A stretch of DNA of 29,426 nucleotides from Alphaproteobacteria bacterium (GTDB lineage: Bacteria; Pseudomonadota; Alphaproteobacteria; UBA7879; UBA5542). The DNA is taken from positions 1 through 29,426 of the forward strand of contig JBMDXI010000043.1 of the NCBI GenBank assembly GCA_048595075.1. The letters are read 5' to 3'. This document shows positions 1 through 8,600 of the stretch, piece after piece (positions within the stretch are counted from its first letter, which is position 1; each line of letters opens with the position of its first letter). Under the pieces are notes generated by a model. The model was not told the DNA's origin. It searched no databases and worked only from the letters and a program-made list of their open reading frames with translations. Position numbers and translations under genes: made by a program.

Positions 1-1295
1 ACCATCGTGGCAAGCTGCCTATTGGTACATAAAGTGCGTGCATAGACTACTTCTGTGGCAGGCAGCTCGGGTTTGCAGTCCCAATTAACAAAGGAAATTA
101 AATAATCGGTTCCTGGAATTTTAGGGTTGCTAGAACTGCTGCGTCGGCTAAACCAAAAAGTGCTTTTTTTTTGTTTCATAGAATGATGATCATAGGAAAA
201 ATAAGGGCCAATTTCTTCTACTTCAACAGCATCCAGATTAGACGCAAAAACTTTTTCTACACTATAAATTTCTGTCGTCATTTCGCGCCGATGATCAGGG
301 ACAAGGCGATATTCTATTTTTTTATGATCAAATCGAATGGGTTCCGATGTACGGGGAAACAGGTTAATAATAGGGGTACATCCTAATAAAAAAGTCCTTT
401 TCGAAAAGGCCACTGCTTGGGCTTCTTCTGCATCACAAACGGGAATAAAAATGTCGGCAGCTTGTGTGCACTTGCTGAAATCCACTTTTAGATCAAAAAA
501 TTGATATTTTTTAGGAAATGCAAAATATTCTTGAAGGAGTCCATAAGCGGGGTGGCCATTAGCAGGGCGAGGAATGGCAGCTTCATCTAAGGAGAATCCT
601 ACTTGATGGATAACATCTGGCCCTAGAATTTTAAATTTATGCAAGTCACTTCCTGTGATAGCAATACGATGGTTTTCTTCAAATAGAAGCTGATATAAAA
701 TGTTTGCCTCGGTATGATGGGCATTAATATAGAATCTTAAGTAAGGAATATTCAGCTCGTTCAAGGGGGTTTTATGGGCTTTCAATGAAATTTTCAAAAG
801 ATAAGTATGGGGCGTAAGCGTTTCCCCAAAATCATATTTCTCAGCCTTTACTAAGGTAGCATTGCTAATTTCGATAGGCCATAATTCAATCGGATAACAG
901 GTTCTGAAGCGACAGATCTCTCCCTCAGTTGCTTCAGTAAATACAGAAAAATTCTTGGGAATAATATAGCTATTCGTCATGGGCTTTTGGGTGTCAGGCT
1001 GAAATTGTGCAATGCTCATGGGGGGAATAGGATTGGTTAAAAAGGGATATAAAATACTTAAAAGAGCAGATGAAATCCGGGGGAATTGATTTTCAATGTC
1101 ATGCTGTAAATACCCTGCTAAAAAGGCAAATGATTCAAGTAACCTTTCTATATGGGGGTCAGCAGACTGATTTTCAGTAAAACTTAGTCGGCGGGCGATT
1201 TTAGGATATTTTGACGCAAACATCCCCCCCATTTGCCGCAAAAAAGACATTTCTTTTTGGTAGTATAATAACTGAAGATCATTAGATTGCGTCAT
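1..1295 (-). CDS. tssF: T6SS baseplate subunit TssF, 5' part; gene runs off the left edge of the window (not in the ORF track)
   Basis: Manual translation from ATG at 1295: MTQSNDLQLLYYQKEMSFLRQMGGMFASKYPKIARRL...ADPHIERLLESFAFLAG...LYPFLTNPIPPMSIAQF, and LCTNR in the same frame at the window edge. These are hallmark TssF motifs. Lies directly downstream of tssE. Confidence 0.95.
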   Translation of the reverse strand, partial: MTQSNDLQLLYYQKEMSFLRQMGGMFASKYPKIARRLSFTENQSADPHIERLLESFAFLAGYLQHDIENQFPRISSALLSILYPFLTNPIPPMSIAQFQPDTQKPMTNSYIIPKNFSVFTEATEGEICRFRTCYPIELWPIEISNATLVKAEKYDFGETLTPHTYLLKISLKAHKTPLNELNIPYLRFYINAHHTEANILYQLLFEENHRIAITGSDLHKFKILGPDVIHQVGFSLDEAAIPRPANGHPAYGLLQEYFAFPKKYQFFDLKVDFSKCTQAADIFIPVCDAEEAQAVAFSKRTFLLGCTPIINLFPRTSEPIRFDHKKIEYRLVPDHRREMTTEIYSVEKVFASNLDAVEVEEIGPYFSYDHHSMKQKKSTFWFSRRSSSSNPKIPGTDYLISFVNWDCKPELPATEVVYARTLCTNRQLATM

Positions 1296-1361: not shown

Positions 1362-1468
1362 TATAGTTGGAAACTTATAAAATTATTACGTCGAAATTCG
1401 TCGCTGGTGTGCGTTAGCACAAGTTCGCTCCTCATTTCTCGTACTCATTTTAAACTTTCTCAGCTATA
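1362..1468. mobile_element. ~107-bp miniature inverted-repeat element (RPE/MITE-like), copy 1, in the tssE-tssF spacer
   Basis: TATAGTT...AGCTATA termini; 9 mismatches over 107 nt versus copy 2 (9887-9993) by manual alignment. Confidence 0.9.
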
Positions 1469-1477
1469 TTTCTTTCG

Positions 1478-1993
1478 CTATATGTCTTTATTATAAGCTT
1501 TTTTCTCGCGCCTGCCAATATCTTGAAAATGTTGTACAGCTACGGGGAATGAAATAGGTTCTAATACATCGCCGATTTTCAGCATACCATGAACTTGTAA
1601 ATAAAGGTTTTGAGTTTGGGGATCATATTGGCTGATTTCAACAGAGACGCTTTCTAAGCGTGGTTCAAATAACTTTAAGCTATTGGCCATCAAGCGGGCG
1701 AGTTTATTCGCTCCTTCAGGGCTAGAAGCATCCCCATAAGATTGGTCGGGGAATCCATACAGATCAGGAAGCCCGTATTCAAGGGTGGAAGGGTCTAAAG
1801 CCTGATATTCTTTCCAAGGGATTTTGCAACGGGTATTCAAAAGGTGGGTGGCTTCCCGCATAACGGACGCGATGGTTTCTTCGCGATTGTATTTAATAAA
1901 GGGAACAACCTCTGCAAAGGTATTCAGGTCATCATCCACAAGCCGATCAAACAGAGGAGCCGTCGTCCCAACAATTGTCCAACTTTTACTCAT
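1478..1993 (-). CDS. tssE: T6SS baseplate subunit TssE (gp25-like)
   Basis: PLFDRL, LLNTR, YGLPDL and FEPRL motifs; position in the T6SS operon. ATG at 1993 preceded by a GGGGG RBS is preferred over the TTG at 2011 in the ORF track. Confidence 0.92.
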   Translation of the reverse strand: MSKSWTIVGTTAPLFDRLVDDDLNTFAEVVPFIKYNREETIASVMREATHLLNTRCKIPWKEYQALDPSTLEYGLPDLYGFPDQSYGDASSPEGANKLARLMANSLKLFEPRLESVSVEISQYDPQTQNLYLQVHGMLKIGDVLEPISFPVAVQHFQDIGRREKKAYNKDI

Positions 1994-2030
1994 AGAATGA
2001 GCCCCCTTCAAGCTTCTTCGCTATAGGTTA

Positions 2031-2684
2031 CTAGCCAGCAGCTATTTGGTTAATAGTAACGTCAAAGCTTGTTGCTATTTGCCCTGTGACTTCTCCGCTG
2101 GTAGAAGTAGAGTGATAGATTAATGTGCCCTTTGTAAAAACAAAACTTAGCTCTAAAAGATATAATTCCATAGAGTGTAAGTTATTGAAAAAATTTCCAT
2201 CATAACGGGAGCTATCCATCGCGCCTTCTCCGACAGCATGAACTTCCCCTGTAGGCCCTACATAATCATACTGTACATAGGGAACGTTAGCGATGGCTTC
2301 AGCAATGCGTGCCTTTTCTAGCTCAATAACAAACTTAGGTTGGGCTGTGGCACCCGTTGCTCCATAGTTAGAAACAACAATGATGGTGATTTTAGGAAAA
2401 ACTGTTCCCTTTCCACAGTGAGCTTTAAAGGCTTCTGCTTGTTCCTGATCTATCAATATTTTAAAATCACTGACACTTACTTGTCCCGTTGAGGCCAGAA
2501 GCCCGTTATTTCCAGGCTTAACAGATTTGCTCATAGAGAATCTATATTTAAATACACTATGTCCCTCTGTAATAGCCCCATTGTCAGTGTTCTCTTTTCC
2601 TGGAACTTCAGGGCACAGTAAATACGCTGAAGCAGTTCTGGATAAGTACGATTTGTTGGGGCGTGTAAAAGTATTAATAGGCAT
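2031..2684 (-). CDS. hcp: Hcp/TssD-like tube protein B, divergent, with N-terminal extension and internal insertion
   Basis: AYLLCPEVPGKE, GQVSVSDFKI, HCGKGTVFPKITI and LELSFVFTKGTLIY...G...SFD segments align by eye with the Hcp beta-strand pattern; located between tssC and tssE; GAGGA RBS. Confidence 0.8.
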   Translation of the reverse strand: MPINTFTRPNKSYLSRTASAYLLCPEVPGKENTDNGAITEGHSVFKYRFSMSKSVKPGNNGLLASTGQVSVSDFKILIDQEQAEAFKAHCGKGTVFPKITIIVVSNYGATGATAQPKFVIELEKARIAEAIANVPYVQYDYVGPTGEVHAVGEGAMDSSRYDGNFFNNLHSMELYLLELSFVFTKGTLIYHSTSTSGEVTGQIATSFDVTINQIAAG

Positions 2685-2702
2685 GATATTCCTCTGTTAT
2701 GT

Positions 2703-3281
2703 TTATGCCGGTTCGTAGGTTCCTTTGTCGGTACTAGAAATAACCCCTGATTGACCTTCAGCTGTCATGTCTTCTCCGTAATGGGTACGCGTTTCTTCTA
2801 GTTGAGAATAGGCAAATGTCAGGGTTTCAAATATCCCTTCACTTGTTGCCAATTGATAATTTTGGTCAAATTCTATCTGGCAACTTTCGATATAAATGTT
2901 AGAGAGGATACGCTCTGTCATAACCGAGGGGCCTGCCCCTGCTGTGCCTACTTCTGTGATAGTAATTGATTCAAGGTTGGTGCCCCCAAAACAATGGGTT
3001 ACGGCAGGAATAACGCTTTTATCAACCGCAATATAAACCGTGGTAGAAAAAGTTTTAGGAAATCCTGCTTCAAAAGGGCTTCCTGATGAGACGCGATCCA
3101 CAGGGTTAATGGTAGAAAAAGTAGGCCTATTCAGAAGCGGTATCTTATGACTTAAATCAACGCCATCTGTGTTGACTTTCAAGCTTCCTTGAAGAAGGTC
3201 TCCCCCCATCCCGACAAGCATAGAAGTAAACTTGAAAGGCAGTCCGAGGAAAGACTCTAATGTTTCTGTTTGTATTGCCAT
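2703..3281 (-). CDS. hcp: Hcp/TssD-like tube protein A, highly divergent
   Basis: VDKSVIPAVTHCFGGTNLESITITEV resembles the Hcp DKASP..F..C..GE.L..V.I segment; ETLTFAYSQLEETRTHY resembles E.V.L.Y..I...Y; immediately after tssC, the canonical hcp position; AAGGA RBS. Confidence 0.7.
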   Translation of the reverse strand: MAIQTETLESFLGLPFKFTSMLVGMGGDLLQGSLKVNTDGVDLSHKIPLLNRPTFSTINPVDRVSSGSPFEAGFPKTFSTTVYIAVDKSVIPAVTHCFGGTNLESITITEVGTAGAGPSVMTERILSNIYIESCQIEFDQNYQLATSEGIFETLTFAYSQLEETRTHYGEDMTAEGQSGVISSTDKGTYEPA

Positions 3282-3297: not shown

Positions 3298-4779
3298 TTA
3301 TTTAGCTGGCGGTGGTAATTCAGCCACCAGACGTAAAGATGCTGTTAACTCTTCCAACTGGAAGTGGGGTCTTAAAAAGACAGTCGCCCTATACTTACCA
3401 GGTTCCCCTGGTACGTCAAATACGTCTATGCGTGCCTCACGCAAAGGGAACCGCGCTTTTAATTCTTGGGGCGCATCATCTGTCAAAAGAACGTAATTCG
3501 CAATCCAAGTTTGTAGATACTTTTGTACATCTGCTTTCCCCATAAAGCTACCGATCTTATCGCGCATAATAACCTTTATGTAATGAGCGAAACGTGAGGC
3601 CGCTAGAATATAGGGGAGCCTTGCTGATATAGTTGCGTTAGCTGTGGCTTGAGGTACATTATACTTCATGGATTTTTGGGTGGTTTGCCCCCCAAAGAAA
3701 GCAGCTTTATCTGTTCCTTTACAGTGACACAGGGAAATAAATCCTAAATCACTTAATTCTTTTTCCCGACGATCTGTGATCGCAATTTGCGTGGGGCACT
3801 TCAAAGCTAAATCCCCATCAGTTGTCTTAAAGGTGTAAGATGGCAATCCTTCTACTAATCCACCGCCTTCAACACCACGGATAGCAGCTGTCCATCCATA
3901 CAAAGCAAAGGCATTCGTGATACGTTGCCCCAGCATATAGGCGGGGTTCCCCCATACAAATGTTTTAAGGGTTTGACCATCTACTACTTCTTCGTAATTT
4001 AACCCTTCAACAGGTGAAGTAGTTGGGCCATAAGGTAAGCGCATCAATACGCGTGGTAGTACCAACGCCACATAACGAGAATCTTCACTTTCGCGGAAAG
4101 ATTTCCATTTTATTTTATCTAGGCTTTCAAATATTTTTGCTAAATCTCGAGGTTTTCCTAAGTCTACAAAGCTATCAAGATCAAACAAGGTAGGGGATGC
4201 TTCTGTTAACACAGGCGCATGTGCAGCAGCAGCCACATTAGACAGCTTAGAAAGTAAAGACATATCAGGGGCCGTTGCATCAAAACTATAATCTGCGATC
4301 AAACAAGAATAAGGGTTTCCCCCAAAAGTACCATATTCATCTTCATAAACTTGTTTGAAAAGAGTGCTCTGGTCAAATTCGGTTGCCTTTTCAAGGTCTT
4401 GCCTTAATTCATTTTTGCTAACGTTCAGCAAGCGTATTTTTAACTGTGTGCTTGTTTCTGTGTTCATAACAAGGTAAGAAAGCCCACGCCAGGAAGCTTC
4501 TAATTGTTGGAAGTTTGGATGATGCATAATTTCATCTAATTGACGTGAAATAAGTTGATCAATTTCTTCTATACGCGTTTGTACGAAAGCAACCGTGTCT
4601 TTGCTAACCGTATCCCCGGCTTGTAAAATCTGCTGTACAAATTCGTCGACCATATCAACGGCATATGCCTTCATATCGGGGTCGCGCACTAATTTTCCGT
4701 TTGTTAAAACTTGATCTAACAACGTGGATGGAGCAGCTGCCTCTGCTGCTGGAGTCTCAGTTTTTTTTGCGTCAGCCAT
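3298..4779 (-). CDS. tssC: T6SS contractile sheath large subunit TssC (VipB)
   Basis: IMHHPNFQQLEASWRGL, EDEYGTFGGNPY, LPRVLMRLPYG, REKELSDLGFISL, SRFAHYIKVIMRDKIGSF and RPHFQLEEL motifs. Confidence 0.99.
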   Translation of the reverse strand: MADAKKTETPAAEAAAPSTLLDQVLTNGKLVRDPDMKAYAVDMVDEFVQQILQAGDTVSKDTVAFVQTRIEEIDQLISRQLDEIMHHPNFQQLEASWRGLSYLVMNTETSTQLKIRLLNVSKNELRQDLEKATEFDQSTLFKQVYEDEYGTFGGNPYSCLIADYSFDATAPDMSLLSKLSNVAAAAHAPVLTEASPTLFDLDSFVDLGKPRDLAKIFESLDKIKWKSFRESEDSRYVALVLPRVLMRLPYGPTTSPVEGLNYEEVVDGQTLKTFVWGNPAYMLGQRITNAFALYGWTAAIRGVEGGGLVEGLPSYTFKTTDGDLALKCPTQIAITDRREKELSDLGFISLCHCKGTDKAAFFGGQTTQKSMKYNVPQATANATISARLPYILAASRFAHYIKVIMRDKIGSFMGKADVQKYLQTWIANYVLLTDDAPQELKARFPLREARIDVFDVPGEPGKYRATVFLRPHFQLEELTASLRLVAELPPPAK

Positions 4780-4796: not shown

Positions 4797-5387
4797 TTAC
4801 TTTGCTGGCTTTCCAGCAGGTTTAGCATCTTCTGCCCCTGCTGGTTTAACTGCTGCAATATCTTTTTGTACTTCTGCGCGGTTATCTGCATTTTCCAAAA
4901 TACTTTGTAGCAACTTTTCTAATTTTTCGTTCCCGTCAAGCTTAGCTAATAAATTATGAAGCTTTGTGCGGGCATCATATAATTTAGCTAAGGGGTCAAT
5001 TTGTTGTAAAACGTTAACAGGTTCAAAATCTTCTATGCTTTTGAAATTCAGCAAGACATTTAACTGAGTGTCGGCGCCTTCAGCACCTTTTTTGTCTTCT
5101 TCTTTTCCACTGCCTGCTGTTAAAGTATTATCCACACGGTAGGCAAGTCGTGGGCCAATATTTTTCAAAATGGAGTTAAAATTATCACGATCAATTTCAA
5201 TCGCTTTGCGGTCCTTAAAAAGAGGCATTTCTTTATCAGGGTCTCTGTCACCTGACAAATCAGCTAATACTCCCATTACAAAGGGCAATTCTTTCATCTG
5301 AATAGCGTCACCCACTTCAACGTCATAGGTAATTTGAACGCGTGGAGGCCGCACCCTGTCTAACTTGTGCTGATTACTTTCTGCCAT
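4797..5387 (-). CDS. tssB: T6SS contractile sheath small subunit TssB (VipA)
   Basis: QHKLDRVRPPRVQITYDVE, ELPFVMGVLADLSG and F.SIEDFEP motifs. Confidence 0.99.
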   Translation of the reverse strand: MAESNQHKLDRVRPPRVQITYDVEVGDAIQMKELPFVMGVLADLSGDRDPDKEMPLFKDRKAIEIDRDNFNSILKNIGPRLAYRVDNTLTAGSGKEEDKKGAEGADTQLNVLLNFKSIEDFEPVNVLQQIDPLAKLYDARTKLHNLLAKLDGNEKLEKLLQSILENADNRAEVQKDIAAVKPAGAEDAKPAGKPAK

Positions 5388-5432: not shown

Positions 5433-5660
5433 TGTTATAAAACGTCTGTAAACTAAAAAATAAACCCCCCTTATTTGGTACTAAGAACTTAGCACATTGC
5501 TATGCTAGATTGTAGGAATTTGAGTGACTGCTCTATAGAAAAATGTTCTTTCACAGCATTTAGGGTTACTTTTAATTAAGCTTTTTCTCTTGAAAACTTG
5601 CCTACAACTCTCTATATACAATTTACCCATAAGACTTTGATAGAGAGAGAGGCTTTGAAG

Positions 5661-8600
5661 ATGCGCAAGTTTATAAGTTACAGTTTAATTTTATCGTTCA
5701 TGTGGAGCACCCCCTACAGTGTGTGGGCGAGTATTACAAGTTCGCAGGATGAAAAAATTGCAAAGTTTGAACGATTTTTGTGGCCCTCAGCCCTGCCAGC
5801 CCATCGTTTGTTTAAAGCTGAAGAGGAAAAAACAGCCGCAGGGATTTTGCCTTTAGCTAACCATGAGGGCAACTTGTATGTTTTACTCGGAAAGCGTAAT
5901 GATCATCCTGAATGGTGTAATTTCGGGGGTGGTTCTAAATCTGACGAATCTTATCTGAATGAAACAGCAGCTCAAGAGCTTCTTGAAGAATCTTGTGGGC
6001 TGTATGCTGTAGACCCCGATGCTTTGCATGCCTCTTTTTCTCATACAGTGCAAACGCCTGAGTTAACCTATCGGATGTATATCCGCCAATTCCAGTATTT
6101 AGATAGCCTTCATTTTCTCGACAGATTGAATGAAGCCAAAGATGGCTCTTCCAAAGAATATACAGATTTTGCTTGGTTTAAGTTGAGGGCCTTAATAAAT
6201 TGGGCTAAAGATACAACTTATAAGCTATCCCTACAGGATTTCCATCCTCAAGATCAGCAACGGTTTTCTTCTAACTTTGATAATGAAATGTTCTCTCTTT
6301 TTGGCCCCTTTGCTACGATGATGCGGGAGCAGTCTGTTCTTAAGATTTTAACTTCAGGAAATCGCCATAGAAATGTTCATACCTTCCGTCGACTAGAAAG
6401 AGGAGAAGAATCTTCAGAAACCTTTACAGTACGTGTAGGCTGGTATCCTGTTCAAACAACCGTGCAAGATACAGAAGGACTTAAACCTTCGGATGCTGCC
6501 TATTTAGTACCCTATGGGCGTAATGCGGTGGGAAATATTTTTGCAGAGAAGACCTATGAGAAAATAGAGGATGGTACGGTTATTGACAGCCTATCATTTC
6601 CTGTTCTCTTCAACCCTGAGGCAGAACGTAAAACAGTGGCCACAACTGTTGTGAAAAAAGCCCACACCTTAATGGAACTGATTTCTTTGCCGAAATTTGA
6701 AAAGGGTGAGGACGCCCCAGAACCCTCTCCTATTCCTGAAAAATGGAAAGTTCTGGTAGAAGAATTTCGGAAAGCTACCCCCACAGAGCGTCACTTAAAA
6801 TGGGTTTTAAAAAATCAATTTTTAGAGGGAAGAACTCTTGAAGCGTATAGAGGAAACTTTAGGGCTTATTTAGAGGCGATGAATAATCAGTCTCGTATGG
6901 AGAATCGGGGTAAAATTGACATCACTGATGAGGCGATTGATCAATTGGCAACGCTTCTTCATCAAGAAGTTGAAGCCCTGCAGCATCCGATAGACCCCCG
7001 TTTCCCGCTTTACCATGGTGCGGTAGGGCAGATAGGAGAACTTTATACCATCTTTTCCTATTTGAAAGAAATTCTAAGGATTAATCCCTTAAAAGGAGCG
7101 CATCTTGCTAACCCTCATTTCTCGTCGGTGGAAATGAATCCTATTTTTTTGAACGGCGTCCGAGGGACGGATATGTACTTTCAAAAGTTTTTGGAAATCC
7201 TGAAAAAGCCAGAAAATCAAAACCTTACCCATGCCCAAGCTTTTTATAAAGAATTTATTAAAGATAATTCAAGCCCTAATTATGATCCTTTCGTGGTATT
7301 GAATAGAATTTGTGCTAACCCGGCCCTAACCTGTGGTCCTGGACTTAGTACAAGTACCAGTAATTCCATTGAATATTGGTTGAAAGGCCATAGCGTTACT
7401 TTACCTCCTATTGAGAATATTTTCCCAGAAACACTTGCTTTACTAGGAACAAAGGGTGAATTTACGGCTTTTAATTCTATTTTTACTCAGTATTATGGTC
7501 TTCTCAAGGAAAATGAAACAAATGGTGTTATGTTTCAGATGTTTGTGTCACCTGCTCTGTTGAATGTTGCAACCCATTCTTACAACCATCACTGCACTGA
7601 AACTTATGTAGATGACCCTATTCTAGGGCCTTTTAACAATATCTTCCAATATGAAAAGTTTTTCCAGGTAGGTATTGATCCGAGCAAAGATAGCTCTTTT
7701 GCCTACCCTGAAATTTGGGCCTACTTTACACCAGATCAAACTCAGCACGATTTGCGGATTTTATCTTATCGAAAAAATGATTTGCCTTCCGCCCAGCACA
7801 AGCAACTTATCAGTAGCCTGAAAGATCTCGTAGATCATATGACGATTCGCTGGTTGACTCAACGCACCCGCCTGATGGATGGGGCCCTCTATGAAGGCAA
7901 CCCCACCCTTTATAAGCTTCATCGTATGGTTAGCCTTTATCACGCAGGGGAATCTACCCAAGATTCTCTCCCCCAAGGTAGCTTAGAACATCTTATCAAC
8001 TTAGGTAATGTGCAAGGGGTAGAGACTTTTATCACACATCACCCTGAAGTTATTGATGCTTTACCCGAAAAGTATTGTCACGATTTATTGCTAGGGGCTA
8101 TCTATGAGGGGAACGATGAAATGGCTACCCTTCTTTCAAAAACTTTTTATAACCAAGAAAATTATGTCGAGCTCTTAACGGAAAAAGAGGCTATTTTAAT
8201 TGTACAATTCATGCTTAATAATGCTGAAAATCCTAAAACAGCCTTTGATTTAAACATTTTGCATAAGCTGAACGAAAAATTTTCCTTACAGGACTTCAGC
8301 AAGCGCTATATGAAAATGTGGTTGGGTGGAAATTTTAATCCCCAGGGTTTTTCTAACCATCTTGAAAAAATAGAGTCTTTGGTAGATTTCTTTGGTGACG
8401 ACTTTATTTTCTATTTAGTAAAATCTATTACATTATGCGGCACCCAGTACCCTCTTTTAATAAAAAAACTAGCGGAACCAACCATAAAAGCGAAGATAAA
8501 AAATCCTGTATTTTTACGAAAATGGTTCGACGCTATTGATCTAGAACATCAACAATCAAAACCCTCTTTCGGGTCGGAGGTGATAAATATCTTTAAAACT

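What the first reader, a model, noticed from the sequence alone, without database searches (positions are those of the whole stretch)
2031..3281. T6SS with two highly divergent tandem Hcp-like genes: possible heteropolymeric or specialised tube
Seen: two genes between tssC and tssE each retain the Hcp strand pattern but share little sequence with each other, and neither has a typical Hcp N-terminus. Known: most T6SS operons carry one hcp, and Hcp hexamer stacks form the tube and chaperone effectors; some phage tails and eCIS (Afp1/Afp5) use two tube paralogs. Inference: this T6SS may build a mixed or position-specific tube (for example an initiator ring plus bulk tube) like eCIS, which would be an unusual architecture for a symbiont T6SS.
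Basis: partly seen in the sequence, partly recalled or inferred. Interest (0 to 1): 0.75.

Follow-up and report, generated by a model that had tools for sequence, protein, structure and literature searches.

The report
Two divergent Hcp tube genes, conserved pair
A small-genome, protist-symbiont-type alphaproteobacterium (Holosporaceae-like) carries two very different but genuine copies of the type VI secretion tube protein Hcp side by side in its core operon. The pair is kept under purifying selection across the whole bacterial order, and it supplies the inner-tube gene that a published survey reported as missing from these bacteria.

Summary

The two proteins are distant paralogues (hhalign probability 94%). 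The genome has no other Hcp. The adjacent pair is present in 18 of 18 genomes of the order and in three genomes of two further families. dN/dS is 0.05-0.07 for both genes.

HcpB groups with the sole Hcp of sister lineages, whereas HcpA forms a separate clade. A complex model supports A-B contact (ipSAE 0.77, best control 0.00), but Hcp rings are known structures, so this shows likeness, not binding.

I read this as two non-redundant tube subunits that probably co-assemble. A bulk-tube plus accessory-ring arrangement is not excluded. Hcp heterohexamers are already known in Bacteroidales. A bioRxiv paper reported TssD as missing in Holosporaceae; it is cryptic, not missing. This scan had already found the same pair in other genomes.

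The parts
4797..5387 (-). tssB (small sheath subunit, 196 aa)
   Evidence: PF05591 at 1.1e-48 and TIGR03358 at 8.4e-49
3298..4779 (-). tssC (large sheath subunit, 493 aa)
   Evidence: PF05943 at 5.9e-132, PF18945 at 7.9e-45 and TIGR03355 at 8e-205
2703..3281 (-). hcpA: A-type Hcp/TssD paralogue, 192 aa, specific to this clade
2031..2684 (-). hcpB: B-type Hcp/TssD paralogue, 217 aa, with a variable insertion of about 40 residues (about 130-168); groups with the sole Hcp of sister lineages
1478..2011 (-). tssE (gp25-like baseplate subunit, 177 aa)
   Evidence: PF04965 at 5.3e-11 and TIGR03357 at 4.2e-18
1362..1468 (.). 107-nt dispersed repeat copy inserted in the tssE-tssF spacer
   Evidence: the repeat finder family D4 (92% identical copy at 9887-9993) and inverted copies at 28248-28362
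3..1295 (-). tssF, first 431 aa, cut by the contig end; the operon continues with tssG-clpV on contig C116
   Evidence: PF05947 at 1.5e-125; tssG and clpV on G000:C116

Best explanation
hcpA and hcpB are two ancient, non-redundant paralogues of the T6SS inner-tube protein Hcp (TssD). They serve the single, complete type-i T6SS of a Holosporaceae-like endosymbiont. Shown: both have the Hcp fold, both occupy the canonical hcp slot, both are retained as an adjacent pair throughout the order under strong purifying selection, and the genome has no other Hcp. Inferred: HcpB is the direct descendant of the ancestral tube subunit, because it groups with the only Hcp of sister lineages. HcpA is a second subunit fixed in this clade. 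The two work in the same tube by direct contact, most likely as mixed (heteromeric) hexamer rings or as alternating or dedicated rings. The apparent absence of TssD in published Holosporaceae T6SS inventories is an annotation artefact of their divergence.

For: Homology: hhalign of A1 against A2 gives 93.9% probability. Orthologues of both types pass the PF05638 cut-off.

Context: the operon is a tight tssB-tssC-hcpA-hcpB-tssE-tssF. TssG, ClpV, TssK, TssL, TssM and VgrG are found elsewhere in the genome.

No third Hcp.

Conservation: the pair is adjacent in 18 of 18 genomes of the order (3 families, 10 genera) and in G125, G284 and G191.

Selection: dN/dS is 0.068 for A and 0.047 for B in the closest pair of genomes.

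Phylogeny: the A clade has 100/98 support, and B plus the single- and triple-copy Hcps form a clade with 99/96 support. No A-type gene was found in the single- or triple-Hcp genomes. Pair-bearing loci form one clade on the TssC tree, with 82/71 support.

Contact: the A+B complex model scores ipSAE 0.77, 0.77 and 0.80 against a best control of 0.00. That mark was reached by 58 of 80 solved complexes and 2 of 110 mismatched pairs.

Precedent: adjacent Hcp paralogues form heterohexamers in Bacteroides (PMC13035841, PMC13213661).
Against: The complex score may come from the model's memory of Hcp rings, so any two Hcp paralogues might pass. Homo-oligomers (A6, B6) could not be modelled for comparison because only one job is allowed and the limit is 1000 residues. 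B-type Hcps evidently build a tube alone in single-Hcp relatives, so HcpA is not structurally required in principle. Tandem Hcp multiplication happened independently in related lineages (three copies in G208 and G024, two in G036). That pattern fits cargo specialisation as well as co-assembly. There are no expression or protein data for this organism.
Confidence: 0.5

Rival explanations
1. Division of labour without co-assembly. HcpB homohexamers build the whole tube, as the single B-type Hcp must do in sister lineages. HcpA forms its own homohexamers that act as a minor, specialised ring, for example a cargo-carrying or chaperone ring, or the ring seated on VgrG.
For: B groups with the sole Hcp of single-Hcp genomes. 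Independent tandem expansions of Hcp in related symbionts resemble cargo-driven diversification. In two of four same-genus comparisons A is somewhat less conserved than B: 85 against 92% and 70 against 81% identity. Hcp as an effector carrier is well established (PMC8262886).
Against: A and B diverge at nearly equal rates overall: 47.0 against 47.1%, 29 against 33%, and 34 against 31% identity. A cargo adaptor would be expected to be the more variable of the two, and to sit beside effector genes rather than in the invariant core slot between tssC and tssE. The A-B interface model scores high.
Confidence: 0.33
2. One of the two has left the tube role. It keeps the Hcp fold but now acts as a secreted effector, regulator or other Hcp-fold protein, and only the other builds the tube.
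For: Hcp-fold proteins are known to be reused. Other entries of this scan report Hcp paralogues in flagellar operons and in exported contexts (not checked here). Both proteins carry a non-canonical N-terminal extension, and B carries an insertion.
Against: Both genes are locked into the core operon with 16-19 nt spacers in every genome examined. Both models superpose on complete Hcp chains at 2.2-2.8 A. No signal peptide or added domain was seen.
Confidence: 0.1
3. Redundant or decaying duplicate: a lineage-specific duplication on its way to loss.
For: The proteins are extremely divergent from each other and from Pfam's Hcp model.
Against: dN/dS is 0.05-0.07 for both. Intact ORFs are found in 17 of 18 genomes of the order. 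The exception, G004 (named CP060261 on the evidence given in the full report), also has a broken tssC and is only 78% complete, which suggests assembly indels. Even a 0.52 Mb genome keeps two Hcp genes.
Confidence: 0.03

Closest known systems
Canonical Hcp/TssD of type-i T6SS (P. aeruginosa Hcp1 1Y12, A. baumannii Hcp1 4W64, B. pseudomallei 4TV4, E. tarda EvpC 3EAA)
   Different: There are two obligatorily paired, mutually very divergent copies instead of one. Sequence identity to solved Hcps is only 9-17%. The window proteins fall below Pfam's threshold. Both have an N-terminal extension of about 17-20 residues, and HcpB has a variable insertion of about 40 residues.
Bacteroidales T6SS-iii minor Hcps forming heterohexamers (B. 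fragilis Hcp2-Hcp3 9VNE/9VND; Hcp1-Hcp2), PMC13035841 and PMC13213661
   Same: Divergent Hcp paralogues are encoded next to each other within one T6SS locus, and heteromeric rings are the likely outcome. An A-B interface is predicted here.
Dispersed T6SS of Holosporales endosymbionts (Ca. Bodocaedibacter vickermanii, Paracaedibacteraceae, Caedimonadaceae; PMC8163844) and the 'tube-less' T6SS reported for Holosporaceae (bioRxiv 10.1101/719211)
   Same: The bacterial group and T6SS lineage are the same. Sheath genes are followed by Hcp-like gene(s), and the other T6SS genes lie at separate sites.
   Different: PMC8163844 lists one 'Hcp-like' gene in a [tssB-tssC-hcp] unit. 10.1101/719211 states that TssD is missing in Holosporaceae. 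Here the unit is tssB-tssC-hcpA-hcpB-tssE-tssF, with two cryptic Hcps.
eCIS tube pair Afp1/Afp5 (PVC1/PVC5) and the phage T4 proteins gp19/gp48/gp54
   Same: The idea is the same: more than one tube-fold paralogue in one contractile machine. The proteins share the distant tail-tube fold.

Membership tests
Hcp/TssD (PF05638), T6SS-i inner tube | The window proteins themselves reach Pfam's gathering score | tested here: not met
   HcpA scores 18.3 bits against a cut-off of 23.5. HcpB has no hit. NCBIfam has no hit for either.
Hcp/TssD (PF05638), T6SS-i inner tube | Sequence homology to the family at profile level or through orthologues | tested here: met
   The A1 profile matches PDB Hcps at E 4.7e-4 and 5.9e-4, and the A2 profile at E 2.5e-3 to 5.7e-3. 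The G191 orthologues score 25.2 bits (A) and 39.6 bits (B) on PF05638. A-type representatives score 27-32 bits. A1 hits grade continuously into canonical Hcps that score 59-127 bits.
Hcp/TssD (PF05638), T6SS-i inner tube | Hcp beta-barrel fold over the whole chain | tested here: met
Hcp/TssD (PF05638), T6SS-i inner tube | Encoded in a T6SS core cluster with the sheath and baseplate genes | tested here: met
   The order tssB-tssC-hcpA-hcpB-tssE-tssF is found here and in G001, G006, G007, G191 and G125.
Hcp/TssD (PF05638), T6SS-i inner tube | Forms hexameric rings that stack into a tube and is exported on sheath contraction | not testable with these tools
   Only an A+B dimer could be modelled (ipSAE 0.77 against a best control of 0.00). 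No hexamer, stacking or secretion data are available.
Bacteroidales-type minor-Hcp heterohexamer module | Two different Hcps form one ring | tested here: inconclusive
   The complex model supports A-B contact, but it may reflect memory of Hcp rings. There was no homo-oligomer comparison.
Bacteroidales-type minor-Hcp heterohexamer module | A separate structural Hcp builds the bulk tube | tested here: not met
   No further Hcp was found in the genome with PF05638 or with the A1 and A2 profiles.
Bacteroidales-type minor-Hcp heterohexamer module | The Hcp pair is linked to cognate effector genes in variable regions | tested here: not met
   The pair is fixed between tssC and tssE in every locus examined.
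eCIS (Afp/PVC) two-tube-protein architecture | eCIS gene set and Afp1/Afp5-type tube proteins | tested here: not met

The most novel reading that the evidence does not exclude
The entire inner tube of this type-i T6SS is built from obligate mixed HcpA/HcpB rings (for example alternating A3B3). That would be a bulk tube with three-fold rather than six-fold subunit symmetry inside a conventional six-fold sheath, fixed for the whole evolutionary history of an order of protist endosymbionts. It would be the first T6SS whose main tube, rather than a minor cargo ring, is heteromeric.
Probability: 0.3. Interest if true: 0.75.

Novelty: new variant of a known kind. Interest (0 to 1): 0.5.

Why it matters
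First, it corrects the record. A published survey (bioRxiv 10.1101/719211) concluded that Holosporaceae endosymbionts run a modified T6SS without an inner tube. The tube genes are present but too divergent for standard models, and there are two of them. Profiles A1 and A2 can be used to annotate them.

Second, it offers a natural test case for how a homomeric ring protein becomes a fixed two-subunit system. This is a type-i T6SS with exactly two Hcps and no other, kept even in very small genomes. The case complements the recent discovery of minor Hcp heterohexamers in Bacteroidales.

Third, it bears on how intracellular symbionts of protists use a T6SS against or within a eukaryotic host.

Tried and rejected
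(1) Word-indexed homologue searches with the single proteins found only the proteins themselves. Single-sequence PDB searches gave nothing. Whole-genome searches and profiles were needed to find relatives.

With TssC it gave only five loci, but these named the relatives as Holosporaceae.

(3) I first thought the contrast between sheath and tube conservation was remarkable: TssC 88% identical against HcpA and HcpB at 47% within the genus. A control on canonical alphaproteobacterial loci shows the same pattern, for example TssC 79% with Hcp 38%, and TssC 71-75% with Hcp 24-29%. The contrast is ordinary and I dropped it.

(4) Timing of the duplication is undecided. The tree puts A outside the clade of B plus single- and triple-copy Hcps. 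An AU test only marginally rejects A+B as one clade (p 0.044), and long branches are in play.

(5) Expression could not be tested. Only DNA metagenome runs (straw, air, soil) hold the sequence, and read laying was not used.

(6) A hexamer or a homo-versus-hetero comparison could not be run, because only one complex job is allowed and the limit is 1000 residues.

(7) The eCIS-like reading was rejected on structural distance and gene context.

(8) hhalign of the two G036 ORFs against A1 and A2 was not significant. A profile of the single- and triple-copy Hcps did identify them.

Full report
ANATOMY. The window is a whole 29,426-base contig (G000:C43) of a 1.2 Mb, about 40% GC genome that is 100% complete. 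Its left end carries these genes on the minus strand:
- tssB, 4797-5387
- tssC, 3298-4779
- a 192-aa ORF, 2703-3281 (hcpA, P0001)
- a 217-aa ORF, 2031-2684 (hcpB, P0002)
- tssE, 1478-2011
- the first 431 codons of tssF, 3-1295, cut by the contig end

Spacers are 16-19 nt, and each hcp start is preceded by a Shine-Dalgarno-like motif. The rest of the machine is elsewhere in the assembly: tssG-clpV on C116, tssK-tssL-tssM on C118, and vgrG fragments at the ends of C82 and C19. PF06761 alone missed TssM, but TIGR03348 found it. The T6SS is therefore complete and of the canonical type-i kind; TssC scores 681 bits on TIGR03355. The nearest named relatives by TssC are 'Holosporaceae bacterium' MAGs at 83-86% identity.

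ARE BOTH Hcp? Standard models nearly miss them. HcpA scores 18.3 bits on PF05638, under the 23.5 cut-off, and HcpB has no Pfam or NCBIfam hit. Single-sequence searches of the PDB and of 5.8 billion proteins found nothing.

Whole-genome searches of relatives recovered orthologues of each, and I aligned them as A1 (13 sequences) and A2 (12 sequences). With these alignments:
- AlphaFold2 gave models of moderate confidence: pLDDT 70.2 with pTM 0.68, and pLDDT 76.5 with pTM 0.72.
- Foldseek against the PDB returned almost only Hcp chains in the top 50, the rest being Hcp1-fusion entries. The best hit was A. baumannii Hcp1 (4w64), at E 6.7e-11 for A and 1.3e-10 for B.

At sequence level:
- The A1 and A2 profiles hit solved Hcps weakly.
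- Less diverged orthologues pass Pfam's cut-off. In G191, A scores 25.2 bits and B scores 39.6 bits. A-type representatives score 27-32 bits.
- An exhaustive HMMER search with A1 found 44 cluster representatives at E<=1e-10, and the hits grade into canonical Hcps of 160-170 aa.

A and B are homologous to each other only at profile level (hhalign 93.9%); pairwise BLASTP gives E 0.023. Both carry a low-confidence N-terminal extension of about 17-20 residues ahead of strand 1. In HcpA, part of that extension is conserved with the same-genus orthologue, as read from the alignment. HcpB has a variable insertion at about residues 130-168.

IS THE PAIR CONSERVED AND SELECTED? With the profiles, both genes are found, adjacent and in the same order, in 18 of 18 genomes of the order (3 families, 10 genera). 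They are also found in three genomes of two other families of the class: G125 and G284 (f111) and G191 (f177). Longer loci all show tssB-tssC-hcpA-hcpB-tssE-tssF.

The only broken copies are in G004 (78% complete). I identify it with the named record CP060261 (locus L030) from its matching size and coordinates. That locus also shows a fragmented tssC, so assembly indels are the likelier cause.

For the closest genome pair (G010 and G012), dN/dS is 0.068 for A and 0.047 for B, at dS of about 1.1-1.2. Neither gene is a decaying duplicate. The genome has no third Hcp. Public annotation of B-type proteins is 'hypothetical protein' with no Pfam domain.

EVOLUTION. I built a maximum-likelihood tree of 51 Hcps.
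- All the symbiont-type Hcps separate from canonical alphaproteobacterial Hcps, with 95/87 support.
- A-type is one clade, with 100/98 support.
- B-type clusters with the sole Hcp of single-Hcp relatives (G061, G234, G142, G156) and with three tandem copies in G208 and G024, with 99/96 support.
- No A-type gene exists elsewhere in those single- and triple-Hcp genomes.
- On a TssC tree, the pair-bearing loci form one clade with moderate support (82/71).
- An AU test only marginally rejects A+B monophyly (p 0.044).

It is therefore open whether A arose at the base of the pair-bearing clade and then diverged fast, or is older and was lost elsewhere. Either way, B-type is the universal subunit and can evidently build a tube alone in relatives (inference). 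A-type is the added, clade-specific subunit.

Tandem multiplication of Hcp is recurrent in this symbiont group. A 0.52 Mb, 29% GC genome (G036) has a TssB-TssC fusion ORF followed by two B-clade Hcps, scoring 68.6 and 53.1 bits against a profile of the single- and triple-copy Hcps.

MECHANISM. One complex job was available. A+B folded with ipSAE 0.77, 0.77 and 0.80 against a best control of 0.00. That mark was reached by 58 of 80 solved complexes and 2 of 110 mismatched pairs. The three runs share 78-88% of their contacts.

The interface uses:
- the helix and neighbouring strands of A (residues 86-102 and 128-159)
- the strands of B (residues 44-69 and 188-207)
- residues of both N-terminal extensions

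I read this as a lateral, ring-type contact; that is my reading of the residue list and no tool checked it. Because Hcp rings are solved structures, the pass shows that A and B are compatible with an Hcp-type interface. It does not show that they prefer each other over themselves.

Taken together with the fixed adjacency, the near-equal divergence of the two genes (47.0 and 47.1%, 29 and 33%, 34 and 31% identity) and the Bacteroides precedent for adjacent Hcp paralogues forming heterohexamers (PMC13035841, PMC13213661), I favour co-assembly in one tube, at confidence about 0.5. The main rival, at about 0.33, is a B-only bulk tube with A as a separate minor ring that carries cargo or adapts to VgrG. 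Loss of the tube role by one copy (about 0.1) and neutral redundancy (about 0.03) are unlikely.

WHAT IS KNOWN.
- PMC8163844 describes the dispersed Holosporales T6SS with a [tssB-tssC-hcp] unit and one 'Hcp-like' gene.
- bioRxiv 10.1101/719211 states that the inner tube (TssD) is missing in diplonemid endosymbionts 'as well as in related Holosporaceae' and proposes a modified T6SS. The present data indicate that TssD is cryptic and duplicated there, not absent. I could not name the exact genomes of that paper among the anonymous handles.
- Heteromeric Hcp rings are known, but only as minor cargo rings beside a structural Hcp in type-iii systems.
- This scan had already flagged the same pair in other Holosporales-like genomes. 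My tests were run independently and they agree.

CHECK THAT LOWERED A CLAIM. Within the genus, TssC is 88% identical but both Hcps only 47%. This looked striking, but canonical alphaproteobacterial loci show the same disparity, so I make no claim from it.

VERDICT. The feature is real, well supported, and a useful annotation correction. It is a new variant of a known kind: a fixed two-Hcp core in a type-i T6SS. The architecture of the tube itself remains to be shown by experiment.

Noticed in passing
L063:7331-9247 (G036:C1), L063:6676-7299 and L063:5969-6619: A 0.52 Mb, 29% GC relative encodes TssB and TssC as one 638-aa fusion ORF. It is followed by two tandem B-clade Hcp paralogues (68.6 and 53.1 bits against a profile of the single- and triple-copy Hcps). 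The first ends in a lysine-rich tail. This looks like an independent Hcp duplication kept in an extremely reduced genome.
   Followed up: partly
L037:1345-3012 (G208) and L039:1294-3071 (G024): Three tandem B-clade Hcp genes of about 153-178 aa are present in another small-genome family of the class. This is a separate expansion from the A/B pair.
   Followed up: partly
P0033 (1351 aa) and P0036 (2164 aa): Single polypeptides carry six consecutive PF05638 Hcp domains (312 and 754 bits in total). One is fused to RTX repeats, and the other to Ig-like and weakly metalloprotease-like regions. They may be covalently linked 'single-chain Hcp rings'. Their origin and genomic context are unknown.
   Followed up: no
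window 1362-1468 (also 9887-9993 and 28248-28362): A 107-nt dispersed repeat sits inside the T6SS operon, in the 182-nt tssE-tssF spacer. Other copies lie at the 3' ends of unrelated genes. Whether it affects tssF expression is unknown.
   Followed up: partly
L030 (CP060261.1, Holosporaceae bacterium HK-STAS-PROT-86), 6514-8550: tssC, hcpA and hcpB all appear as fragments in this single-contig assembly, which I identify with G004 (78% complete). This is either long-read indel error or real erosion of the T6SS in that lineage.
   Followed up: no
window 5598-9905 (+): A 1435-aa ORF is transcribed divergently from tssB. It has no Pfam hit at E<=0.01, and NCBIfam gives only a faint Nudix-like hit. 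It is treated in another entry of this scan. It is too large to be Hcp-lumen cargo, so it is probably unrelated to the Hcp pair.
   Followed up: no
L043-L056 (canonical alphaproteobacterial T6SS loci): Hcp is far less conserved than TssC in ordinary type-i loci as well (for example TssC 79% with Hcp 38%). The common statement that Hcp is among the most conserved T6SS proteins does not hold across these genomes.
   Followed up: partly
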